From contig OZ024761.1 in the NCBI GenBank assembly GCA_964016885.1, positions 13,888,001-13,952,000 on the forward strand: 64,000 nucleotides of DNA. The letters are read 5' to 3'. The first letter of the stretch is position 1. Each line of letters starts with the position of its first letter. Under the pieces are notes generated by a model. It saw nothing but the letters and a program-made list of their open reading frames with translations. It ran no database searches and was not told where the DNA came from. The stretch is from Eledone cirrhosa (taxonomy: Eukaryota). This document shows positions 9,172 through 62,665 of the stretch, in pieces. A program made the translations under genes and the position numbers.

Positions 9172-9970
9172 GGCACCCAGCCCACACTGTAAAGTGGTCA
9201 TGTAGGAGTCACAGCAAAAAGCACCCAGTCTACACTATAAATGTGGTCATGTAGGTGTCATGACGAAAAGGACCCAATTGACACTGTAAAGTGGTTGTGT
9301 AGGAGTCACAGCAAAAAGCACCCAGTCTACACTATAAATGTGGTCATGTAGGTGTCATGACGAAAAGGACCCAATTGACACTGTAAAGTGGTTGTGTAGG
9401 AGTCACAGCAAAAAGCACCCAGTCTACACTATAAATGTGGTCATGTAGGTGTCATGACGAAAAGGACCCAATTGACACTGTAAAGTGGTCGTGTAGGTGT
9501 CATGACGAAAAGGACCCAATTGACACTGTAAAGTGGTTGTGTAGGAGTCACAGCAAAAAGCACCCAGTCTACACTATAAATGTGGTCATGTAGGTGTCAT
9601 GACGAAAAGGACCCAATTGACACTGTAAAGTGGTTGTGTAGGAGTCACAGCAAAAAGCACCCAGTCTACACTATAAATGTGGTCATGTAGGTGTCATGAC
9701 GAAAAGGACCCAATTGACACTGTAAAGTGGTCGTGTAGGTGTCATGACGAAAAGGACCCAATTGACACTCTAAAGTGGTCGTGTAGGAGTCACAGCAAAA
9801 AGCACCCAGTACTCACTATAAATGTGTTGGCGTTAGGAAGGGCATCCAGCTGTAGAAACCAAGCCAAAATCGGTTCTGTATGAGCAAGACACAGTCATCT
9901 GACCCGACATTGATCACAACAAATGACTCGTCTAATGGCCGTTAAACAGTGATAATGATGATGATGATGA
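9172..9970 (+). repeat. 48/49-bp tandem expansion within an RTE 3' UTR
   Basis: Alternating units acactgtaaagtgg..gcaaaaagcacccagtct and acactataaatgtgg..gacgaaaaggacccaattg, followed by the RTE tail. Confidence 0.9.
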
Positions 9971-10094: not shown

Positions 10095-10134
<40 letters not shown>

Positions 10135-10163
10135 CATTTATATATATATATATATATATATAC

Positions 10164-13100
10164 ATAAAAACAAATAACGAAACGAAATTAAATTTCGTTT
10201 CGTTTGTAACTCACTTTTGTATGACTGACGCTTAAACAATTAAGTTAAAGATGTACATCCATATATGTATACTGAAATACTAGTATGTATATGAATACAC
10301 ACACGTATACATATGTAGATGTACCAAGTTTTTTCACTGGTCACTTTACTGTGAGTGGCCAGCTATTCTGTATGTAAACACACAGACAAACCGGTTTTTA
10401 GAGTCATACTGGTTTTTGAGGAAACACCTTTCCTCTATTCTCCAGAAAGCCAGACAAGGAATATTGAACTAGTTTCGTTGTTGTTACAACTCATCAGCAA
10501 TATTTACCCATCTTCCGGCCTCTCTAGAGAATCGTAAAAGCACATATCGTTATATGCTTTTTCTATGAAAATTAGTAGTGGGCAGACTAATTTGCATAGA
10601 GTGTGAGTAAGTACCGGTTCAACGGAGACGATAAAAACAAATAACGAAACGAAATTAAATTTCGTTTCGTTTGTAACTCACTTTTGTATGACTGACGCTT
10701 AAACAATTAAGTTAAAGATGTACATCCATATATGTATACTGAAATACTAGTATGTATATGAATACACACACGTATACATATGTAGATGTACCAAGTTTTT
10801 TCACTGGTCACTTTACTGTGAGTGGCCAGCTATTCTGTATGTAAACACACAGACAAACCGGTTTTTAGAGTCATACTGGTTTTTGAGGAAACACCTTTCC
10901 TCTATTCTCCAGAAAGCCAGACAAGGAATATTGAACTAGTTTCGTTGTTGTTACAACTCATCAGCAATATTTACCCATCTTCCGGCCTCTCTAGAGAATC
11001 GTAAAAGCACATATCGTTATATGCTTTTTCTATGAAAATTAGTAGTGGGCAGACTAATTTGCATAGAGTGTGAGTAAGTACCGGTTCAACGGAGACGATA
11101 AAAACAAATAACGAAACGAAATTAAATTTCGTTTCGTTTGTAACTCACTTTTGTATGACTGACGCTTAAACAATTAAGTTAAAGATGTACATCCATATAT
11201 GTATACTGAAATACTAGTATGTATATGAATACACACACGTATACATATGTAGATGTACCAAGTTTTTTCACTGGTCACTTTACTGTGAGTGGCCAGCTAT
11301 TCTGTATGTAAACACACAGACAAACCGGTTTTTAGAGTCATACTGGTTTTTGAGGAAACACCTTTCCTCTATTCTCCAGAAAGCCAGACAAGGAATATTG
11401 AACTAGTTTCGTTGTTGTTACAACTCATCAGCAATATTTACCCATCTTCCGGCCTCTCTAGAGAATCGTAAAAGCACATATCGTTATATGCTTTTTCTAT
11501 GAAAATTAGTAGTGGGCAGACTAATTTGCATAGAGTGTGAGTAAGTACCGGTTCAACGGAGACGATAAAAACAAATAACGAAACGAAATTAAATTTCGTT
11601 TCGTTTGTAACTCACTTTTGTATGACTGACGCTTAAACAATTAAGTTAAAGATGTACATCCATATATGTATACTGAAATACTAGTATGTATATGAATACA
11701 CACACGTATACATATGTAGATGTACCAAGTTTTTTCACTGGTCACTTTACTGTGAGTGGCCAGCTATTCTGTATGTAAACACACAGACAAACCGGTTTTT
11801 AGAGTCATACTGGTTTTTGAGGAAACACCTTTCCTCTATTCTCCAGAAAGCCAGACAAGGAATATTGAACTAGTTTCGTTGTTGTTACAACTCATCAGCA
11901 ATATTTACCCATCTTCCGGCCTCTCTAGAGAATCGTAAAAGCACATATCGTTATATGCTTTTTCTATGAAAATTAGTAGTGGGCAGACTAATTTGCATAG
12001 AGTGTGAGTAAGTACCGGTTCAACGGAGACGATAAAAACAAATAACGAAACGAAATTAAATTTCGTTTCGTTTGTAACTCACTTTTGTATGACTGACGCT
12101 TAAACAATTAAGTTAAAGATGTACATCCATATATGTATACTGAAATACTAGTATGTATATGAATACACACACGTATACATATGTAGATGTACCAAGTTTT
12201 TTCACTGGTCACTTTACTGTGAGTGGCCAGCTATTCTGTATGTAAACACACAGACAAACCGGTTTTTAGAGTCATACTGGTTTTTGAGGAAACACCTTTC
12301 CTCTATTCTCCAGAAAGCCAGACAAGGAATATTGAACTAGTTTCGTTGTTGTTACAACTCATCAGCAATATTTACCCATCTTCCGGCCTCTCTAGAGAAT
12401 CGTAAAAGCACATATCGTTATATGCTTTTTCTATGAAAATTAGTAGTGGGCAGACTAATTTGCATAGAGTGTGAGTAAGTACCGGTTCAACGGAGACGAT
12501 AAAAACAAATAACGAAACGAAATTAAATTTCGTTTCGTTTGTAACTCACTTTTGTATGACTGACGCTTAAACAATTAAGTTAAAGATGTACATCCATATA
12601 TGTATACTGAAATACTAGTATGTATATGAATACACACACGTATACATATGTAGATGTACCAAGTTTTTTCACTGGTCACTTTACTGTGAGTGGCCAGCTA
12701 TTCTGTATGTAAACACACAGACAAACCGGTTTTTAGAGTCATACTGGTTTTTGAGGAAACACCTTTCCTCTATTCTCCAGAAAGCCAGACAAGGAATATT
12801 GAACTAGTTTCGTTGTTGTTACAACTCATCAGCAATATTTACCCATCTTCCGGCCTCTCTAGAGAATCGTAAAAGCACATATCGTTATATGCTTTTTCTA
12901 TGAAAATTAGTAGTGGGCAGACTAATTTGCATAGAGTGTGAGTAAGTACCGGTTCAACGGAGACGATAAAAACAAATAACGAAACGAAATTAAATTTCGT
13001 TTCGTTTGTAACTCACTTTTGTATGACTGACGCTTAAACAATTAAGTTAAAGATGTACATCCATATATGTATACTGAAATACTAGTATGTATATGAATAC

Positions 13101-13792
13101 ACACACGTATACATATGTAGATGTACCAAGTTTTTTCACTGGTCACTTTACTGTGAGTGGCCAGCTATTCTGTATGTAAACACACAGACAAACCGGTTTT
13201 TAGAGTCATACTGGTTTTTGAGGAAACACCTTTCCTCTATTCTCCAGAAAGCCAGACAAGGAATATTGAACTAGTTTCGTTGTTGTTACAACTCATCAGC
13301 AATATTTACCCATCTTCCGGCCTCTCTAGAGAATCGTAAAAGCACATATCGTTATATGCTTTTTCTATGAAAATTAGTAGTGGGCAGACTAATTTGCATA
13401 GAGTGTGAGTAAGTACCGGTTCAACGGAGACGATAAAAACAAATAACGAAACGAAATTAAATTTCGTTTCGTTTGTAACTCACTTTTGTATGACTGACGC
13501 TTAAACAATTAAGTTAAAGATGTACATCCATATATGTATACTGAAATACTAGTATGTATATGAATACACACACGTATACATATGTAGATGTACCAAGTTT
13601 TTTCACTGGTCACTTTACTGTGAGTGGCCAGCTATTCTGTATGTAAACACACAGACAAACCGGTTTTTAGAGTCATACTGGTTTTTGAGGAAACACCTTT
13701 CCTCTATTCTCCAGAAAGCCAGACAAGGAATATTGAACTAGTTTCGTTGTTGTTACAACTCATCAGCAATATTTACCCATCTTCCGGCCTCT
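10164..13792 (-). mobile_element. Tandem array of a 467-bp hammerhead-containing monomer (candidate non-LTR retrozyme), about 7.8 copies
   Basis: Units start at 10164, 10631, 11098, 11565, 12032, 12499, 12966 and 13433 and look identical. Each has a type I hammerhead and several hairpins. The array is flanked by (TA)n on both sides. Confidence 0.85.
10460..10504 (-). ncRNA. Type I hammerhead ribozyme, copy 1 of 8 (others at 10927-10971, 11394-11438, 11861-11905, 12328-12372, 12795-12839, 13262-13306, 13729-13773)
   Basis: Minus strand reads AAUAUUG CUGAUGA GUUGU-AACA-ACAAC GAAA CUAG UU CAAUAUU: 7-bp stem I, intact core, 5-bp stem II, palindromic stem III (ACUAGU), GUU cleavage triplet. Confidence 0.92.
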
Positions 13793-13827
13793 TTAACTTA
13801 ATTGTTTATATATACATACATTTATAT

Positions 13828-13860
<33 letters not shown>

Positions 13861-30532: not shown

Positions 30533-32278
30533 CTTAATGAAAAACACTATGTCATTAACCCTTTCATTACCATATTTCTAATGAAAGACACTACCTATGT
30601 CCTTCACCCTTTCATTACCATATTTCTAATAAAAGACACTGTCTATGTCATTAACCCTTTCATTACCATATTTCTAATAAAAGACACTGTCTATGTCATT
30701 AACCCTTTCATTACCATATTTCTAATGAAAGACACAGTCTATGTCATTAACCCTTTCATTACCATATTTCTAATGAAAGACACTGTCTATGTCATTCACC
30801 CTTTCATTACCATATTTCTAATAAAAGACACTGTCTATGTCATTAACCCTTTCATTACCATATTTCTAATAAAAGACACTGTCTATGTCATTAACCCTTT
30901 CATTACCATATTTCTAATGAAAGACACTACCTATGTCATTAACCCTTTCATTACCATATTTCTAATGAAAGACACTGTCTATGTCATTAACCCTTTCATT
31001 ACCATATTTCTAATGAAAGACACTACCTATGTCATTAACCTTTTCATTTATATATTTCTAATGAAAGACACTGTCTATGTCATTAACCCTTTCATTACCA
31101 TATTACTAATGAAAGACACTGTCTATGTCATTAACCCTTTCATTACCATATTTCTAATGAAAGACACTGTCTATGTCATTAACCCTTTCATTACCATATT
31201 TCTAATAAAAGACACTGTCTATGTCATTAACCCTTTCATTACCATATTTCTAATGAAAGACACTACCTATGTCATTAACCCTTTCATTACCATATTTCTA
31301 ATGAAAGACACTGTCTATGTCATTAACCCTTTCATTACCATATTTCTAATGAAAGACACTACCTATGTCATTAACCTTTTCATTTATATATTTCTAATGA
31401 AAGACACTGTCTATGTCATTAACCCTTTCATTACCATATTACTAATGAAAGACACTGTCTATGTCATTAACCCTTTCATTACCATATTTCTAATGAAAGA
31501 CACTGTCTATGTCATTAACCCTTTCATTACCATATTTCTAATGAAAGACACTGCCTATGTCATTAACCCTTTCATTACCATATTTCTAATGAAAGACACT
31601 GTCTATGTCATTAACCCTTTCATTACCATATTTCTAATGAAAGACACTACCTATGTGATTAACACTTTCATTACCATATTTCTAATGAAAGACACTGCCT
31701 ATGTCATTAACCCTTTCATTACCACATTTCTAATGAAAGACACTGTCTATGTCATTAACACTTTCATTACCATATTTCTAATGAAAGACACTACCTATGT
31801 CATTAACCCTTTCATTACCATATTACTAATGAAAGACACTACCTATGTCATTAACCCTTTCATTACCATATTTCTAATGAAAGACACTGTCTATGTCATT
31901 AACCCTTTCATTACCATATTTCTAATGAAAGACAATGCCTATGTCATTAGCCCTTTCATTACCATATTTCTCATGAAAGACACTGCCTATGTCATTAACC
32001 CTTTCATTACCATATTTCTAATGAAAGACACTGTCTATGTCATTAACACTTTCATTACCATATTTCTAATGAAAGACACTACCTATGTCATTAACCCTTT
32101 CATTACCATATTTCTAATGAAAGACACTGTCTATGTCATTAATCCTTTCATTACCATATTTCTAATGAAAGACACTGCCTATGTCATTAACCCTTTCATT
32201 ACCATATTTCTAATGAAAGACACTGTCTATGTCATTAACACTTTCATTACCATATTTCTAATGAAAGACACTACCTAT
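30533..32278. repeat. 48-bp minisatellite (~36 copies) derived from a MITE terminus
   Basis: Unit ttaaccctttcattaccatatttctaatgaaagacactgtctatgtca. Confidence 0.96.
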
Positions 32279-32930: not shown

Positions 32931-34127
32931 TATTCTAACATATACCATATTCTTACCATATTCTAACATATACCATTTTCTTACCATATTTTAACATATA
33001 CCATATTCTTACCATATTCTAACATATACCATATTCTTACCATATTCTAACATATACCATTTTCTTACCATATTTTAACATATACCATATTGTTACCATA
33101 TTCTAACATATACCATATTCTTACAATATTTTAACATATACCATATTCTTACAATATTTTAACATATACCATATTCTTACCATATTCTAACATATACCAT
33201 ATTCTTACCATATTCTAACATATACCATATTCTTACCATATTCTAACATATACCATATTCTTACCATATTCTAACATATACCATATTCTTACCATATTCT
33301 AACATATACCATATTCTACCATATTCTAACATATACCATATTCTTACAATATTTTAACATATACCATATTCTTACAATATTTTAACATATACCATATTCT
33401 TACCATATTCTAACATATACCATATTCTTACCATATTCTAACATATACCATATTCTTACCATATTCTAACATATACCATATTCTTACCATATTCTAACAT
33501 ATACCATATTGTTACCATATTTTAACATATACCATATTCTTACCATATTTTAACATATACCATATTCTTACAATATTCTAACATATACCATATTGTTACC
33601 ATATTCTAACATATACCATATTCTTACAATATTCTAACATATACCATATTCTTACAATATTTTAACATATGCCATATTCTTACCATATTCTAACATATAC
33701 CATATTGTTACCATATTCTAACATATACCATATTCTTACAATATTTTAACATATGCCATATTCTTACCATATTCTAACATATACCATATTGTTACCATAT
33801 TCTAACATATACCATATTCTTACAATATTTTAACATATGCCATATTCTTACCATATTCTAACATATACCATATTGTTACCATATTCTAACATATACCATA
33901 TTCTTACCATATTTTAACATATACCATATTGTTACCATATTCTAACATATACCATATTCTTACAATATTCTAACATATACCATATTCTTACCATATTCTA
34001 ACATATACCATATTCTTACCATATTTTAACATATACCATATTCTTACCATATATCATATTTTAACATTCACCATATTCTCACATATACCACATTCTTACC
34101 ATATTCTCACATATACTTACCATATTG
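32931..34127. repeat. 28-bp minisatellite
   Basis: Unit accatattctaacatataccatattctt. Confidence 0.96.
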
Positions 34128-39283: not shown

Positions 39284-39535
39284 ATTAAACTTTTCAAGGA
39301 TTTACACCAGTCCAGCCTCCTGTTATTTTATTATAATAATTAACTCCGTACTCGCACCACCAACTACACAAACGAAGACGGGTGAACTGCTTTACGTTGA
39401 GTACTCTCCATAATATTACATCGAGATTGACCATATGGAATGACCAATTCTATCCAGTGGTGGACCAACAAACCTAAATATATATATATATATACGATAT
39501 TAATAAATGGAAACTATATTTATAAAACCATATTT

Positions 39536-39597
39536 ATTTCATTATACATATTTCAGGGATACCAAATTAAATTATGGTATGCCTTCATCAGACAAAA
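39536..39597 (-). ncRNA. Hammerhead-like motif, same family as 23205-23260
   Basis: CUGAUGA AGGCAUACCA...UGGUAUCCCU GAAA UAUGUA. Stem II is strong and stem I poor. Confidence 0.5.
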
Positions 39598-40103
39598 TAC
39601 AATATATAACAGTTTTGTCGAGTGCTTTATATCAGTTATAAAAATATTTACTTGTTGTATCCCAACAATTTTAAATAGAACTTTTGCATATATATATATA
39701 TATTTAAGTCGTTTGGAAGCCTCGACAATGCAAATGGGTAAATCTCCGGGTAACAAGGTCCGGTGGGGGAGAGAGATGTAAGTGGGTGTACATTGAGATG
39801 CGTGGTGTGTATAAGATGTGTGAGATGTGTAGAATGAAGGGAAGAGTATAAAGGATAAAAATAAAAATAACAACACAAGAGAGAGTTACCTTGGGAGAGA
39901 TTTAATAGTCCCTATATATTTCGGATTCACATCCATCAACTGGGGTTTTTTTCCGGGGTGGGGGAAAAGGTTGTCTGTCGGACAAGTCCGGAACGCGTCT
40001 TTCGCAATATATATATATATATTTATTCAGGTTTGAGGTTCACCACTGGATAGAGCTGGTCAATTCCGTATGGTCAATCGCAATGTAATAATATATATAT
40101 ATA

Positions 40104-52976: not shown

Positions 52977-55900
52977 CTGTCTGGTGGGTTAGTTGGTCAG
53001 ACAGACAGACAGACACATTACTATAGTACTATGTCTAACACTATTGACTGTGTCTGGTGGGTTAGTTGGTCAGACAGACAGACAGACAGACAGACACATT
53101 ACTATAGTACTATGTCTAACACTATTGACTGTGTATGGTGGGTTAGTTGGTCAGACAGACAGACAGACACATTATTATAGTACTATGTCTAACACTATTG
53201 ACTGTGTCTGGTGGGTTAGTTGGTCAGACAGACAGACAGACACATTACTATAGTACTATGTCTAACACTATTGACTGTGTCTGGTGGGTTAGTTGGTCAG
53301 ACAGACAGACACATTACTATAGTACTATGTCTAACACTATTGACTGTGTATGGTGGGTTAGTTGGTCAGACAGACAGACAGATTGGTACATTACTATAGT
53401 ACTATGTCTAACACTATTGACTGTGTCTGGTGGGTTAGTTGGTCAGACAGACAGACAGACAGACACATTACTATAGTACTATGTCTAACACTATTGACTG
53501 TGTATGGTGGGTTAGTTGGTCAGACAGACAGACAGACAGACACATTACTATAGTACTATGTCTAACACTATTGACTGTGTCTGGTGGGTTAGTTGGTCAG
53601 ACAGACAGACAGACACATTACTATAGTACTATGTCTAACACTATTGACTGTGTCTGGTGGGTTAGTTGGTCAGACAGACAAACAGACAGACACATTACTA
53701 TAGTACTATGTCTAACACTATTGACTGTGTATGGTGGGTTAGTTGGTCAGACAGACAGACAGACAGATTGGTACATTACTATAGTACTATGTCTAACACT
53801 ATTGACTGTGTCTGGTGGGTTAGTTGGTCAGACAGACAGACATACAGACACATTACTATAGTACTATGTCTAACACTATTGACTGTGTATGGTGGGTTAG
53901 TTGGTCAAACAGACAGACAGATTGGTACATTACTATAGTACTATGTCTAACACTATTGACTGTGTCTGGTGGGTTAGTTGGTCAGACAGACAGACAGATT
54001 GGTACATTACTATAGTACTATGTCTAACACTATTGACTGTGTATGGTGGGTTAGTTGGTCAGACAGACAGACAGACAGACACATTACTATAGTACTATGT
54101 CTAACACTATTGACTGTGTCTGGTGGGTTAGTTGGTCAGACAGACAGACAGACAGATTGGTACATTACTATAGTACTATGTCTAACACTATTGACTGTGT
54201 CTGGTGGGTTAGTTGGTCAAACAGACAGACAGATTGGTACATTACTATAGTACTATGTCTAACACTATTGACTGTGTCTGGTGGGTTAGTTGGTCAAACA
54301 GACAGACAGATTGGTACATTACTATAGTACTATGTCTAATACTATTGACTGTGTCTGGTGGGTTAGTTGGTCAGACAGACAGACAGACAGATTGGTACAT
54401 TACTATAGTACTATGTGTAACACTATTGACTGTGTCTGGTGGGTTAGTTGGTCAGACAGACAGACAGACACATTACTATAGTACTATGTCTAACACTATT
54501 GCCTGTGTCTGGTGGGTTAGTTGGTCAGACAGACAGACAGACAGATTGGTACATTACTATAGTACTATGTCTAACACTATTGACTGTGTCTGGTAGGTTA
54601 GTTGGTCAAACAGACAGACAGATTGGTACATTACTATAGTACTATGTCTAACACTATTGACTGTGTCTGGTGGGTTAGTTGGTCAGACAGACAGACAGAT
54701 TGGTACATTACTATAGTACTATGTCTAACACTATTGACTGTGTCTGGTGGGTTAGTTGGTCAGACAGACAGACAGATTGGTACATTACTATAGTACTATG
54801 TCTAACACTATTGACTGTGTCTGGTGGGTTAGTTGGTCAGACAGACAGACAGACAGACACATTACTATAGTACTATGTCTAACACTATTGACTGTGTCTG
54901 GTGGGTTAGTTGGTCAGACAGACAGACAGACAGATTGGTACATTACTATAGTACTATGTCTAACACTATTGACTGTCTGGTGGGTTAGTTGGTCAGACAG
55001 ACAGACAGACAGATTGGTACATTACTATAGTACTATGTCTAACACTATTGACTGTGTCTGGTGGTTTAGTTGGTCAAACAGACAGACAGACAGATTGGTA
55101 CATTATTATAGTACTATGTCTAACACTATTGACTGTGTCTGGTGGGTTAGTTGGTCAGACAGACAGACAGATTGGTACATTACTATAGTACTATGTCTAA
55201 CACTATTGACTGTGTCTGGTGGTTTAGTTGGTCAAACAAACAGACAGACAGACAGATTGGTACATTACTATAGTACTATATCTAACACTATTGACTGTGT
55301 CTGGTAGGTTAGTTGGTCAAACAGACAGACAGATTGGTACATTACTATAGTACTATGTCTAACACTATTGACTGTGTCTGGTGGGTTAGTTGGTCAGACA
55401 GACAGACAGATTGGTACATTACTATAGTACTATGTCTAACACTATTGACTGTGTCTGGTAGGTTAGTTGGTCAAACAGACAGACAGATTGGTACATTACT
55501 ATAGTACTATGTCAAAAACTATTGACTGTGTCTGGTGGTTTAGTTGGTCAAACAGACAGACAGACAGATTGGTACATTATTATAGTACTATGTCTAACAC
55601 TATTGACTGTGTCTGGTGGGTTAGTTGGTCAAACAGACAGATTGGTACATTATTATAGTACTATGTCTAACACTATTGACTGTGTCTGGTAGGTTAGTTG
55701 GTCAAACAGACAGACAGATTGGTACATTACTATAGTACTATGTCTAACACTATTGACTGTGTCTGGTAGGTTAGTTGGTCAGACAGACAGACAGACAGAT
55801 TGGTACATTACTATAGTACTATGTCTAACACTATTGACTGTGTCTGGTGGGTTAGTTGGTCAGACAGACAGACAGACACATTACTATAGTACTATGTCTA

Positions 55901-58900
55901 ACACTATTGACTGTGTATGGTGGGTTAGTTGGTCAGACAGACAGACAGATTGGTACATTACTATAGTACTATGTCTAACACTATTGACTGTGTCTGGTGG
56001 GTTAGTTGGTCAGACAGACAGACAGACAGACACATTACTATAGTACTATGTCTAACACTATTGACTGTGTATGGTGGGTTAGTTGGTCAGACAGACAGAC
56101 AGACACATTACTATAGTACTATGTCTAACACTATTGACTGTGTCTGGTGGGTTAGTTGGTCAAACAGACAGACACATTACTATAGTACTATGTCTAACAC
56201 TATTGACTGTGTCTGGTGGGTTAGTTGGTCAGACAGACAGACAGACACATTACTATAGTACTATGTCTAACACTATTGACTGTGTCTGGTGGGTTAGTTG
56301 GTCAGACAGACAAACAGACAGACACATTACTATAGTACTATGTCTAACACTATTGACTGTGTATGGTGGGTTAGTTGGTCAGACAGACAGACAGATTGGT
56401 ACATTACTATAGTACTATGTCTAACACTATTGACTGTGTCTGGTGGGTTAGTTGGTCAGACAGACAGACAGACAGACACATTACTATAGTACTATGTCTA
56501 ACACTATTGACTGTGTATGGTGGGTTAGTTGGTCAAACAGACAGACAGATTGGTACATTACTATAGTACTATGTCTAACACTATTGACTGTGTCTGGTGG
56601 GTTAGTTGGTCAGACAAACAGACAGATTGGTACATTACTATAGTACTATGTCTAACACTATTGACTGTGTATGGTGGGTTAGTTGGTCAGACAGACAGAC
56701 AGACAGACACATTACTATAGTACTATGTCTAACACTATTGACTGTCTGGTGGGTTAGTTGGTCAGACAGACAGACAGATTGGTACATTACTATAGTACTA
56801 TGTCTAACACTATTGACTGTGTCTGGTGGGTTAGTTGGTCAAACAGACAGACAGATTGGTACATTACTATAGTACTATGTCTAACACTATTGACTGTGTC
56901 TGGTAGGTTAGTTGGTCAAACAGACAGACAGATTGGTACATTACTATAGTACTATGTCAAAAACTATTGACTGTGTCTGGTGGTTTAGTTGGTCAAACAG
57001 ACAGACAGACAGATTGGTACATTATTATAGTACTATGTCTAACACTATTGACTGTGTCTGGTGGGTTAGTTGGTCAAACAGACAGATTGGTACATTATTA
57101 TAGTACTATGTCTAACACTATTGACTGTGTCTGGTAGGTTAGTTGGTCAAACAGACAGACAGATTGGTACATTACTATAGTACTATGTCTAACACTATTG
57201 ACTGTGTCTGGTAGGTTAGTTGGTCAGACAGACAGACAGACAGATTGGTACATTACTATAGTACTATGTCTAACACTATTGACTGTGTCTGGTGGGTTAG
57301 TTGGTCAGACAGACAGACAGACACATTACTATAGTACTATGTCTAACACTATTGACTGTGTATGGTGGGTTAGTTGGTCAGACAGACAGACAGATTGGTA
57401 CATTACTATAGTACTATGTCTAACACTATTGACTGTGTCTGGTGGGTTAGTTGGTCAGACAGACAGACAGACAGACACATTACTATAGTACTATGTCTAA
57501 CACTATTGACTGTGTATGGTGGGTTAGTTGGTCAGACAGACAGACAGACACATTACTATAGTACTATGTCTAACACTATTGACTGTGTCTGGTGGGTTAG
57601 TTGGTCAAACAGACAGACACATTACTATAGTACTATGTCTAACACTATTGACTGTGTCTGGTGGGTTAGTTGGTCAGACAGACAGACAGACACATTACTA
57701 TAGTACTATGTCTAACACTATTGACTGTGTCTGGTGGGTTAGTTGGTCAGACAGACAAACAGACAGACACATTACTATAGTACTATGTCTAACACTATTG
57801 ACTGTGTATGGTGGGTTAGTTGGTCAGACAGACAGACAGATTGGTACATTACTATAGTACTATGTCTAACACTATTGACTGTGTCTGGTGGGTTAGTTGG
57901 TCAGACAGACAGACAGACAGACACATTACTATAGTACTATGTCTAACACTATTGACTGTGTATGGTGGGTTAGTTGGTCAAACAGACAGACAGATTGGTA
58001 CATTACTATAGTACTATGTCTAACACTATTGACTGTGTCTGGTGGGTTAGTTGGTCAGACAAACAGACAGATTGGTACATTACTATAGTACTATGTCTAA
58101 CACTATTGACTGTGTATGGTGGGTTAGTTGGTCAGACAGACAGACAGACAGACACATTACTATAGTACTATGTCTAACACTATTGACTGTCTGGTGGGTT
58201 AGTTGGTCAGACAGACAGACAGATTGGTACATTACTATAGTACTATGTCTAACACTATTGACTGTGTCTGGTGGGTTAGTTGGTCAAACAGACAGACAGA
58301 TTGGTACATTACTATAGTACTATGTCTAACACTATTGACTGTGTCTGGTGGGTTAGTTGGTCAAACAGACAGACAGATTGGTACATTACTATAGTACTAT
58401 GTCTAATACTATTGACTGTGTCTGGTGGGTTAGTTGGTCAGACAGACAGACAGAGAGATTGGTACATTACTATAGTACTATGTGTAACACTATTGACTGT
58501 GTCTGGTGGGTTAGTTGGTCAGACAGACAGACAGACACATTACTATAGTACTATGTCTAACACTATTGCCTGTGTCTGGTGGGTTAGTTGGTCAGACAGA
58601 CAGACAGACAGATTGGTACATTACTATAGTACTATGTCTAACACTATTGACTGTGTCTGGTAGGTTAGTTGGTCAAACAGACAGACAGATTGGTACATTA
58701 CTATAGTACTATGTCTAACACTATTGACTGTGTCTGGTGGGTTAGTTGGTCAGACAGACAGACAGATTGGTACATTACTATAGTACTATGTCTAACACTA
58801 TTGACTGTGTCTGGTGGGTTAGTTGGTCAGACAGACAGACAGATTGGTACATTACTATATTACTATGTCTAACACTATTGACTGTGTCTGGTGGGTTAGT

Positions 58901-61900
58901 TGGTCAGACAGACAGACAGACAGACAGACAGACACATTACTATAGTACTATGTCTAACACTATTGACTGTGTCTGGTGGGTTAGTTGGTCAGACAGACAG
59001 ACAGATTGGTACATTACTATAGTACTATGTCTAACACTATTGACTGTGTCTGGTGGGTTAGTTGGTCAGACAGACAGACAGACAGACACATTACTATAGT
59101 ACTATGTCTAACACTATTGACTGTGTCTGGTGGGTTAGTTGGTCAGACAGACAGACAGACAGATTGGTACATTACTATAGTACTATGTCTAACACTATTG
59201 ACTGTGTCTGGTGGTTTAGTTTGTCAAACAGACAGACAGACAGATTGGTACATTAATATAGTACTATATCTAACACTATTGACTGTGTCTGGTAGGTTAG
59301 TTGGTCAAACAGACAGACAGATTGGTACATTACTATAGTACTATGTCTAACACTATTGACTGTGTCTGGTGGGTTAGTTGGTCAGACAGACAGACAGACA
59401 GATTGGTACATTACTATAGTACTATGTCTAACACTATTGACTGTGTCTGGTAGGTTAGTTGGTCAAACAGACAGACAGATTGGTACATTACTATAGTACT
59501 ATGTCTAACACTATTGACTGTGTCTGGTAGGTTAGTTGGTCAAACAGACAGACAGATTGGTACATTACTATAGTACTATGTCAAACACTATTGACTGTGT
59601 CTGGTGGTTTAGTTGGTCAAACAGACAGACAGACAGATTGGTACATTATTATAGTACTATGTCTAACACTATTGACTGTGTCTGGTGGGTTAGTTGGTCA
59701 AACAGACAGATTGGTACATTATTATAGTACTATGTCTAACACTATTGACTGTGTCTGGTGGGTTAGTTGGTCAAACAGACAGATTGGTACATTACTATAG
59801 TACTATGTCTAACACTATTGACTGTGTCTGGTGGGTTAGTTGGTCAAACAGACAGACAGATTGGTACATTATTATAGTACTATGTCTAACACTATTGACT
59901 GTGTCTGGTAGGTTAGTTGGTCAAACAGACAGACAGATTGGTACATTACTATAGTACTATGTCTAACACTATTGACTGTGTCTGGTAGGTTAGTTGGTCA
60001 GACAGACAGACAGACAGATTGGTACATTACTATAGTACTATGTCTAACACTATTGACTGTGTCTGGTAGGTTAGTTGGTCAAACAGACAGACAGACAGAT
60101 TGGTACATTACTATAGTACTATGTCTAACACTATTGACTGTGTCTGGTAGGTTAGTTGGTCAAACAGACAGACAGATTGGTACATTATTATAGTACTATG
60201 TCTAACACTATTGACTGTGTCTGGTAGGTTAGTTGGTCAAACAGACAGACAGACAGATTGGTACATTACTATAGTACTATGTCTAACACTATTGACTGTG
60301 TCTGGTGGGTTAGTTGGTCAAACAGACAGACAGACAGATTGGTACATTACTATAGTACTATGTCTAACACTATTGACTGTGTCTGGTAGGTTAGTTGGTC
60401 AAACAGACAGACAGATTGGTACATTATTATAGTACTATGTCTAACACTATTGACTGTGTCTGGTAGGTTAGTTGGTCAAACAGACAGACAGATTGGTACA
60501 TTATTATAGTACTATGTCTAACACTATTGACTGTGTCTGGTGGGTTAGTTGGTCAAACAGACAGATTGGTACATTATTATAGTACTATGTCTAACACTAT
60601 TGACTGTGTCTGGTAGGTTAGTTGGTCAAACAGACAGACAGATTGGTACATTATTATAGTACTATGTCTAACACTATTGACTGTGTCTGGTAGGTTAGTT
60701 GGTCAAACAGACAGACAGATTGGTACATTACTATAGTACTATGTCTAACACTATTGACTGTGTCTGGTAGGTTAGTTGGTCAAACAGACAGACAGACAGA
60801 TTGGTACATTATTATAGTACTATGTCTAACACTATTGACTGTGTCTGGTAGGTTAGTTGGTCAAACAGACAGACAGATTGGTACATTACTATAGTACTAT
60901 GTCTAACACTATTGACTGTGTCTGGTAGGTTAGTTGGTCAAACAGACAGACAGACAGATTGGTACATTATTATAGTACTATGTCTAACACTATTGACTGT
61001 GTCTGGTAGGTTAGTTGGTCAAACAGACAGACAGATTGGTACATTACTATAGTACTATGTCTAACACTATTGACTGTGTCTGGTAGGTTAGTTGGTCAAA
61101 CAGACAGACAGACAGATTGGTACATTACTATAGTACTATGTCTAACACTATTGACTGTGTCTGGTAGGTTAGTTGGTCAAACAGACAGACAGACAGATTG
61201 GTACATTACTATAGTACTATGTCTAACACTATTGACTGTGTCTGGTGGGTTAGTTGGTCAAACAGACAGACAGATTGGTACATTACTATAGTACTATGTC
61301 TAACACTATTGACTGTGTCTGGTGGGTTAGTTGGTCAAACAGACAGACAGATTGGTACATTACTATAGTACTATGTCTAACACTATTGACTGTGTCTGGT
61401 AGGTTAGTTGGTCAAACAGACAGACAGACAGATTGGTACATTACTATAGTACTATGTCTAACACTATTGACTGTGTCTGGTGGGTTAGTTGGTCAAACAG
61501 ACAGACAGTTTGGTACATTACTATAGTACTATGTCTAACACTATTGACTGTGTCTGGTAGGTTAGTTGGTCAAACAGACAGACAGACAGATTGGTACATT
61601 ACTATAGTACTATGTCTAACACTATTGACTGTGTCTGGTGGGTTAGTTGGTCAAACAGACAGACAGATTGGTACATTACTATAGTACTATGTCTAACACT
61701 ATTGACTGTGTCTGGTAGGTTAGTTGGTCAAACAGACAGACAGACAGATTGGTACATTACTATAGTACTATGTCTAACACTATTGACTGTGTCTGGTAGG
61801 TTAGTTGGTCAAACAGACAGACAGACAGATTGGTACATTACTATAGTACTATGTCTAACACTATTGACTGTGTCTGGTGGGTTAGTTGGTCAAACAGGCA

Positions 61901-62665
61901 GACAGATTGGTACATTACTATAGTACTATGTCTAACACTATTGACTGTGTCTGGTAGGTTAGTTGGTCAAACAGACAGACAGACAGATTGGTACATTACT
62001 ATAGTACTATGTCTAACACTATTGACTGTGTCTGGTAGGTTAGTTGGTCAAACAGACAGACAGATTGGTACATTACTATAGTACTATGTCTAACACTATT
62101 GACTCTGTCTGGTAGGTTAGTTGGTCAAACAGACAGACAGACAGATTGGTACATTATTATAGTACTATGTCTAACACTATTGACTGTGTCTGGTAGGTTA
62201 GTTGGTCAAACAGACAGACAGACAGATTGGTACATTATTATAGTACTATGTCTAACACTATTGACTGTGTCTGGTAGGTTAGTTGGTCAAACAGACAGAC
62301 AGATTGGTACATTACTATAGTACTATGTCTAACACTATTGACTGTGTCTGGTGGGTTAGTTGGTCAAACAGACAGACAGACAGATTGGTACTTTATTATA
62401 GTACTATGTCTAACACTATTGACTGTGTCTGGTAGGTTAGTTGGTCAAACAGACAGACAGATTGGTACATTACTATAGTACTATGTCTAACACTATTGAC
62501 TGTGTCTGGTGGGTTAGTTGGTCAAACAGACAGACAGATTGGTACATTACTATAGTACTATGTCTAACACTATTGACTGTGTCTGGTAGGTTAGTTGGTC
62601 AAACAGACAGCAGACAGATTGGTACATTACTGTAGTACTATGTCTAACACTATTGACTGTGTCTG
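52977..62665. repeat. ~77-bp satellite array (~9.7 kb) with embedded (GACA)n
   Basis: Unit gtgtctggtgggttagttggtca(gaca)n gattggtacattactatagtactatgtctaacactattgact; length varies in 4-bp steps. Confidence 0.98.

What the first reader, a model, noticed from the sequence alone, without database searches (positions are those of the whole stretch)
10164..13792. Candidate cephalopod retrozyme: 467-bp tandem array with eight intact hammerhead ribozymes
Seen: about 7.8 apparently identical 467-bp units, each with a complete minus-strand type I hammerhead (AAUAUUG-CUGAUGA-GUUGUaacaACAAC-GAAA-CUAG-UU-CAAUAUU), no credible ORF, inserted in (TA)n. Established: metazoan non-LTR retrozymes (newt satellite 2, schistosome Sm-alpha, mussel and coral repeats) are tandem hammerhead repeats whose transcripts self-cleave into monomers and circular RNAs. 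Inference: this array yields a 467-nt monomer or circle cut between 10467 and 10466 (+467n). The identical head-to-tail copies with partial ends fit rolling-circle reverse transcription of a single circle. The monomer is at the long end for this class, and I do not know of a characterised cephalopod example.
Basis: partly seen in the sequence, partly recalled or inferred. Interest (0 to 1): 0.93.

Follow-up and report, generated by a model that had tools for sequence, protein, structure and literature searches.

The report
Octopod retrozyme inserted like Penelope elements
This array is a young copy of a protein-free jumping element that carries a self-cutting RNA; its thousands of genomic copies bear the insertion footprint of Penelope-type retrotransposons, which suggests how such elements are copied, probably round and round a circular RNA.

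Summary
Observation confirmed: 7.77 identical 467-bp units, each with a minus-strand type I hammerhead. It is one young insertion of a large family: 9,221 exact hammerhead matches and 2,364 exact (TA)n junctions, controls 0. Insertions are two head-to-head arms whose outer ends are fixed, not permuted: one at unit position 1, the other at 69-80 (72 of 92 fully seen loci). The window's second arm is 15 bp (13793-13807), with a 43-bp flank duplication. Two fixed ends, an inverted arm and (TA)n targeting are the published signature of Penelope-like elements (PLEs), and a PLE of this genome shows the same two ends. Arms read through the cut site without scars or pile-up, reach about 31 units, and carry locus-private variants in every unit, which favours a circular monomer template. 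Cleavage, transcription and circles were not shown; no PLE with a homologous end was found. Verdict: new member of the non-LTR retrozymes, with unusually direct genomic evidence on how they move.

The parts
10164..13792 (-). Arm 1: 7.77 identical 467-bp retrozyme units; RNA sense is the minus strand; outer end at start site 1 (unit position 1)
13793..13807 (+). Arm 2: 15-bp inverted piece (unit positions 85 to 71) whose outer end is start site 2; joined to arm 1 through a 3-6 nt microhomology
   Evidence: BLAST 13790-13808 = unit 88 to 70
10123..10165 (.). Left copy of a 43-bp duplication of interrupted (TA)n, read as target-site duplication
13807..13849 (.). Right copy of the 43-bp duplication
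10444..10515 (-). Extended type I hammerhead of unit 1 (repeats every 467 bp to 13773): 7-bp stem I continued past a bulge, 5-bp stem II, 2-bp stem III within the palindrome ACUAGU, GUU triplet, cut between 10467 and 10466
10164..10238 (-). 'Tail' between the two inferred reverse-transcription start sites (site 1 at 10164, site 2 at 10233-10238; +467n)
10176..10204 (-). Perfect 13-bp hairpin inside the tail, 12 nt upstream of site 1 in the RNA; candidate RT-binding structure (inference)
10590..10597 (-). Octamer-like motif ATGCAAAT, kept in the 61%-identical sister family; candidate internal promoter element (label recalled, function untested)

Best explanation
A non-autonomous non-LTR retrozyme mobilised in trans by a (TA)n-targeting Penelope-like element. 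Steps: (1) an array is transcribed on the hammerhead strand [inferred]; (2) hammerheads cut it into 467-nt monomers, which a host ligase closes into circles [inferred from PMC7229834]; (3) a PLE RT-endonuclease, probably a dimer, nicks both strands of (TA)n with a stagger and primes cDNA from each 3' end, one at site 1 and one at site 2, about 70 nt apart on the RNA [end positions shown; enzyme inferred from PMC11167929]; (4) each RT runs round the template, past the cut site, for a random length [read-through and length distribution shown; circle inferred]; (5) the two cDNA ends join head-to-head through microhomology or short inserts and the gaps are filled, giving two inverted arms and a flank duplication [junctions shown]. 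In the window arm 1 ran 7.77 rounds and arm 2 only 15 nt.
For: Fixed ends: 30 of 30 loci chosen by DNA similarity have an outer end at position 1 and 23 of 30 an inverted arm ending at 69-78. Of the first 100 site-1 junctions on C1, 64 have an inverted arm ending at 69-80 (35 at 70, 22 at 75), 6 a short site-2 remnant, 2 more by eye; 8 ran off the fetched DNA. Of 14 loci chosen by site 2, 9 end at site 1. 79 of 86 loci have (TA)n on both sides. An autonomous PLE (995-aa frame, RT plus C-terminal GIY-YIG-type end; 38,048 first-look candidates) has two 3' ends about 57 nt apart at (TA)n. PMC11167929 shows a PLE protein cutting and extending both strands and starting at two internal RNA sites that define the tail. 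Template: 46 of 62 first arms and 47 of 62 second arms pass the cut site; 7 of 124 inner ends lie near it, 5.6 expected; spacing at the cut is exact in 396 of 397; arm lengths fit an exponential, KS p 0.21 and 0.15; 31 same-strand hammerheads at unit spacing at one locus; unit divergence 0.74% within arms, 0.65% between arms, 4.7% between loci; 20 of 79 two-arm loci have rare variants fixed in all units of both arms. Ribozyme: core intact in 113 of 116 locus consensuses, stem II U-A/A-U swap, three swapped stem I pairs against the sister family, stems I and II formed in the predicted circle, most pairs at p>0.85.
Against: No RNA-level evidence of any kind. No PLE 3' end among 11 tested resembles the unit beyond AT-rich background or a neighbouring retrozyme copy, unlike 24 of 57 Xenopus families in the 2026 preprint, so the partner is unidentified. 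The tail is about 70 nt, the PLE's about 57 nt, published tails 30-40 nt. Site pairing is not absolute: L206 has two site-2 arms, and 16 of 92 loci have one arm only. Family-wide flank duplications are weak: 11 of 86 against a shuffled mean of 5.0, maximum 11. The mate arm is the strictly nearest arm in only 41 of 122 cases, tied in 28. 48 of 382 within-locus variants are shared between units, some with period 4, so local duplication also acts. In PMC11167929 the uncleaved RNA was the dominant substrate, and in the preprint only 1 of 9 retrozyme dimers cleaved in vitro. Stem III has pair probability 0 in the monomer fold.
Confidence: 0.62

Rival explanations
1. Same PLE-type double priming, but on uncleaved linear multimeric transcripts of existing arrays; the hammerhead serves another step and no circle is copied.
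For: PMC11167929: cleavage not needed and unprocessed RNA dominant for a PLE in vitro. Read-through without scars is expected here too. Young source arrays such as the window are homogeneous. Period-4 variant patterns in L030 and L185.
Against: A variant born in one unit would pass to one daughter unit, yet rare variants are fixed in all units of both arms at 20 of 79 loci, five private ones across 15-16 units at L047. Arms should shorten each generation and end at a transcript start; lengths are exponential and inner ends show no peak beyond chance (best 15-nt window 15 of 182, null 95th percentile 15). 334 of 382 within-locus variants are singletons.
Confidence: 0.22
2. Solo PLE terminal repeats or monomers insert, and arrays then grow locally by unequal crossover or slippage (the scenario discussed in bioRxiv 10.64898/2026.07.22.740005).
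For: Shared within-array variants at some long arms (48 of 382) show that local duplication happens. Median arm length is only about 1 unit.
Against: Both inverted arms are often multi-unit and equally alike (0.74% vs 0.65%). Arrays 99-100% identical to the window already hold 4-8 units at different chromosomes, so arrays are born long. No unit was found attached to a PLE reading frame in the loci examined.
Confidence: 0.08
3. The inverted arm is a fold-back copy of the first cDNA (self-priming), or the element is moved by a LINE through twin priming.
For: Some junctions are near-perfect fold-backs (L024 284/284, L128 95/95, L175 272/272). PMC3846280 argues for self-priming in PLEs. 29 of 68 junctions overlap by 2 nt or more.
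Against: A fold-back cannot exceed its template, yet arm 2 is often far longer (L177 0.54 vs 7.06 units) and arm lengths are uncorrelated (Spearman 0.10, p 0.46). No poly(A) or other 3' tail; the second site is fixed, whereas L1 twin priming is at variable internal sites (recalled).
Confidence: 0.06
4. Assembly artefact or ordinary satellite with a chance hammerhead.
For: 100% identity of eight units; Rfam score below the gathering threshold.
Against: 9,221 exact hammerheads and 2,364 junctions with control 0; covariation in the stems; chance rate 1 in 20,000; an independent run holds a 497-nt contig that closes the unit head to tail. The exact copy number at this locus was not checked on long reads.
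Confidence: 0.02

Closest known systems
Metazoan non-LTR retrozymes (coral, mussel, axolotl; PMC7229834)
   Same: Tandem repeats with a canonical type I hammerhead per unit, GC below 50% (35%), no coding frame, no LTR, long flank duplication, highly paired predicted RNA (z -9.4), thousands of copies, PLEs in the same genome.
   Different: Unit 467 nt against about 170-400 nt for the circles shown there; the main text has no 'inverted', 'octopus' or 'cephalopod' (supplement unreadable). Circles shown there, not here.
Vertebrate retrozymes as non-autonomous PLE derivatives (bioRxiv 10.64898/2026.07.22.740005)
   Same: PLE link, tandem hammerhead units, length within their 51-972 bp range.
   Different: Their evidence is co-occurrence and pLTR homology, without molluscs, tails, inverted arms or start sites. 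Here homology to a PLE was not found but the insertion footprint is PLE-type, and arrays look born long rather than grown locally.
EN+ Penelope-like elements (anole Poseidon, PMC11167929; structure in PMC8557442, PMC3846280)
   Same: Two internal start sites giving a tail on one end only, head-to-head inverted truncated arm, AT-rich or (TA)n target, hammerhead upstream of the start sites.
   Different: No reading frame; tail about 70 nt against 30-40 nt; canonical rather than minimal hammerhead; both arms can be many units long.
Non-autonomous Chlamys elements such as MRC1 (PMC8557442, passage)
   Same: Non-autonomous PLE partners with multicopy head-to-tail insertions.
   Different: They generally resemble their autonomous family at the 3' end, and their clade is reported to lack canonical hammerheads.
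Newt satellite 2
   Same: Hammerhead tandem repeat with weak stem III and palindromic sequence there; reported snRNA-type promoter (seen only as a passage and title in PMC2220036) may parallel the conserved octamer.
   Different: 2-bp rather than 1-bp stem III; promoter function untested here.

Membership tests
Metazoan non-LTR retrozyme | Short tandem repeat with a type I hammerhead in at least two consecutive units | tested here: met
   8 of 8 units; HH9 E 3.2e-07 but under the gathering score
Metazoan non-LTR retrozyme | Intact catalytic core and paired stems, kept across the family | tested here: met
   113 of 116 cores intact, compensatory pairs in stems I and II
Metazoan non-LTR retrozyme | No protein-coding frame, GC below 50% | tested here: met
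   GC 0.35
Metazoan non-LTR retrozyme | No LTR, primer-binding site or polypurine tract | tested here: inconclusive
   No LTR in the 130 loci mapped; PBS and PPT were not searched for
Metazoan non-LTR retrozyme | Dispersed copies, target duplications longer than 4 bp when present | tested here: met
   2,364 junctions; 43 bp in the window, 12 bp at non-repeat L039; weak family-wide
Metazoan non-LTR retrozyme | Highly self-paired RNA with the hammerhead free to form | tested here: met
   z -9.4 minus, -6.9 plus; stems I and II formed, stem III not
Metazoan non-LTR retrozyme | Self-cleavage of the transcript | not testable with these tools
   bench assay needed
Metazoan non-LTR retrozyme | Expression as linear and circular monomers | not testable with these tools
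   no run on record as RNA was offered
Mobilised by an EN+ Penelope-like element | Two fixed 3' ends (tail on one end only) | tested here: met
Mobilised by an EN+ Penelope-like element | Inverted, 5'-truncated second arm, head to head | tested here: met
   72 of 92 fully seen loci
Mobilised by an EN+ Penelope-like element | (TA)n target shared with a resident PLE | tested here: met
   79 of 86 loci; PLE ends
Derivative of a PLE pseudo-LTR | Sequence similarity to the terminal repeat of an autonomous PLE | tested here: not met
   11 PLE 3' ends from the loci in hand, none convincingly similar; other PLE families of the genome were not sampled, so it is not filed as a pLTR derivative
Autonomous PLE | RT and GIY-YIG reading frame | tested here: not met

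The most novel reading that the evidence does not exclude
A still-active octopod retrozyme whose thousands of insertions record rolling-circle, double-ended target-primed reverse transcription: a PLE enzyme dimer starts at two fixed sites on one circular ribozyme RNA and both subunits run round it. The same machinery serves a whole set of (TA)n-targeting non-coding parasites and can switch between them (chimera L213). This would be the first mechanistic footprint tying animal retrozyme circles to PLE enzymes, and gives exact start sites for an in vitro test.
Probability: 0.55. Interest if true: 0.75.

Novelty: new member of a known kind. Interest (0 to 1): 0.57.

Why it matters
Which enzyme moves animal retrozymes, and whether it copies their circles, has been proposed but not shown: the 2020 review says the repeats show no motif that points to the partner (PMC7761336, passage). 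This family supplies that pointer as an insertion footprint, predicts the two start nucleotides, and is young enough (identical copies on three chromosomes) to be active. It can be tested with the published in vitro PLE assay. It also argues that such arrays are born long by reverse transcription rather than grown by crossover, and it accounts for several megabases of hammerhead-bearing DNA in an octopod-like genome.

Tried and rejected
Rfam at gathering threshold: nothing; the sraA and microRNA matches are hairpin and AT-rich chance hits. Sequencing runs: no RNA holder listed. Laying four runs of unknown kind: the 497-nt closed contig in X4 equals 467+30 and fits a tandem array as well as a circle, and its depth relative to a neighbouring repeat is like that in the other runs, so it is not counted as evidence of RNA. 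Search for an autonomous partner by homology: none among 11 PLE ends (the one high score, L173, is a neighbouring retrozyme copy) or behind 13 single-arm and odd ends. Pile-up of arm ends at the cut site or at a transcript start: none. Ligation scars: none. Family-wide TSD test: weak. Nearest-neighbour test of mate arms: not decisive. Covariation outside the hammerhead: 25 one-sided, 4 two-sided, 20 breaking changes; variable sites 51 of 310 paired against 41 of 157 unpaired, p 0.019, modest. Pfam on the PLE protein: RVT_1 only, below cut-off; its GIY-YIG, CxxC and CCHH labels are read by eye against PMC8557442. A GC-rich junction insert at L192 matched no RNA family. Earlier findings of the scan: none. 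The newt promoter paper is not held. Rows dropped: L137 (duplicate of L136); one row already held as L040 was skipped; alignments under 80-88% identity or mostly (TA)n were filtered before mapping.

Full report
Observation. The array spans exactly 10164-13792, 7.77 units of 467 bp with no mismatch between full units. Each unit has a minus-strand type I hammerhead cutting between 10467 and 10466 (+467n); such a pattern arose in 1 of 20,000 simulated units. Rfam HH9 aligns over its whole model at E 3.2e-07 but under its gathering score; the alignment includes the bulged extension of stem I, so this is a canonical, not a minimal, hammerhead. Stem III is two pairs inside the palindrome ACUAGU, which can pair between two ribozymes, as described for dimeric hammerheads in PMC7229834. 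The monomer folds far better than shuffles (z -9.4) and leaves stems I and II formed. There is no reading frame.

Family. A DNA search scored 40 of 60 candidates and listed 150 of 171 matches; I fetched the 29 other loci I could read from that list. Exact patterns give the real size: 2,364 junctions of (TA)n with unit position 1, 543 with position 75 and 9,221 intact hammerheads, each with a reversed control of 0. Copies range from 100% to about 88% identity to the window. A sister family of about 433 nt is collinear at about 61% identity (E 2e-28) and has 3,929 first-look candidates.

Architecture. In 30 of 30 similarity-chosen loci one outer end is at unit position 1; 23 have an inverted arm ending at 69-78, 5 are single-armed and 2 end elsewhere (the query began at position 1, which favours short arms starting there). 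Among the first 100 position-1 junctions of contig C1, 64 have an inverted arm ending at 69-80, 6 a short remnant of it, 18 one arm, 4 another end and 8 ran off the fetched DNA; two of the 18 proved two-armed by eye, giving 72 of 92. Of 14 loci chosen by position 75, 9 end at position 1, 1 ran off, 2 join unrelated DNA and 2 join other elements; of two hand-picked facing pairs, L206 has two position-75 arms. Inner junctions are scattered: 29 of 68 overlap by 2 nt or more, 24 are near blunt, 15 have inserts. The window itself fits: 7.77 units from position 1, 15 bp from position 71, and 43 bp of interrupted (TA)n repeated on both sides. Family-wide the duplication signal is weak (11 of 86, shuffled mean 5.0, maximum 11). 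The sister family uses the homologous two ends, about 56 nt apart.

Why a Penelope-like element. PMC8557442 (passages and section 11) describes PLE insertions as partial tandems with an inverted 5'-truncated copy, a 30-40 bp tail at one end and a (TA)n bias. PMC11167929 (parts 1-2 of 4) shows that a purified PLE protein cuts and extends both strands at AT-rich DNA and starts at two internal RNA sites that bound the tail. [quoted passage not shown] Its best database hit is named Octopus vulgaris, the only tool support for a cephalopod host. None of 11 PLE ends in hand resembles the retrozyme, so the partner family is not identified.

Which template. Cleaved linear monomers are excluded as the usual template: 46 of 62 and 47 of 62 arms pass the cut site, ends near it are 7 of 124 against 5.6 expected, and spacing there is exact in 396 of 397. 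Circle versus uncleaved multimer is harder. For the circle: units differ by 0.74% within arms, 0.65% between arms and 4.7% between loci; 20 of 79 two-arm loci carry rare variants in every unit of both arms; 334 of 382 within-locus variants are singletons; arm lengths fit an exponential and one run has 31 hammerheads at unit spacing; inner ends have no peak beyond chance. Against: mate arms are strictly nearest in only 41 of 122 cases, period-4 patterns occur, a homogeneous source array would look similar, and the anole PLE used uncleaved RNA in vitro. Fold-back copying fails because arm 2 can be far longer than arm 1 and the lengths are uncorrelated.

Ribozyme under selection. The core is intact in 113 of 116 locus consensuses; subfamilies swap a stem II pair and use GUU or GUC; the sister family swaps three stem I pairs and uses GUA. 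This is selection on structure, not proof of cleavage; in the 2026 preprint only 1 of 9 retrozyme dimers cleaved.

Comparison with print. PMC7229834 (parts 2-4 of 6 and a term search; supplement unreadable) defines non-LTR retrozymes, shows circles and names PLEs as candidate partners. bioRxiv 10.64898/2026.07.22.740005 (parts 1-3 of 5 and a term search; supplements closed) supports the link by co-occurrence and homology in 35 genomes without molluscs, and discusses local growth of arrays. PMC7761336, PMC3846280 and PMC2220036 were seen as passages. Searches showed no cephalopod retrozyme and no report of fixed two-arm ends for retrozymes; the library lacks most subscription papers, and unseen supplements or repeat databases may hold the family.

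Verdict. The feature is real and is a new member of a known class. It works, most likely, as a PLE-mobilised circular ribozyme RNA (about 0.62 for the full chain; about 0.85 for PLE-type mobilisation alone). It is not filed as a derivative of a PLE terminal repeat, since that test was not met. Its value lies in the footprint, which turns a proposed mechanism into an exact experiment. Interest 0.57.

Noticed in passing
window 39535-39599, minus strand: A different type I hammerhead with long stem II, in a fragment ending at (TA)n; relatives in L070, L071, L143; probably the end of another PLE-type element.
   Followed up: partly
L050:2795-3227; L074-L098: Sister retrozyme family of about 433 nt, 61% identical, GUA triplet, same two start sites about 56 nt apart, older and shorter arrays.
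   Followed up: yes
L213 (oriented 1477-1990): Chimeric insertion: a family-1 arm from site 2, 28 nt of inverted family 1, then more than one unit of the sister family ending at its site 1; suggests one RT switching between the two RNAs. Single case.
   Followed up: partly
L163, L218, L035, L155, L217 and about 40 more loci: A further abundant small fold-back element in (TA)n with two unequal arms and a one-sided extension of about 90 nt; no hammerhead looked for; abuts retrozyme arms directly at L218, L093 and L029.
   Followed up: partly
loci L021-L205: At least six more hammerhead families and five PLE families in about 0.9 Mb, nearly all clustered in (TA)n tracts.
   Followed up: no
L065:2537-5521, L066:3064-5667: Uninterrupted 995- and 868-aa PLE frames with an asparagine/threonine-rich N-terminal part; hammerhead-like core in the 3' UTR seen by eye.
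   Followed up: partly
L030, L185: Unit variants recur with period 4: block duplication after insertion, a tetrameric template, or assembly.
   Followed up: no
L192 about 590-645: GC-rich insert of about 55 nt at the inner junction, source unknown, no Rfam match.
   Followed up: partly
window 52978-62665, 30547-32272, 32931-34052, 9173-9826: Other minisatellites (77, 48, 28 and 97/145/242 bp periods); no hammerhead pattern found in them.
   Followed up: no
L136 and L137: Identical insertions 17.7 kb apart, a segmental duplication or assembly duplicate.
   Followed up: no
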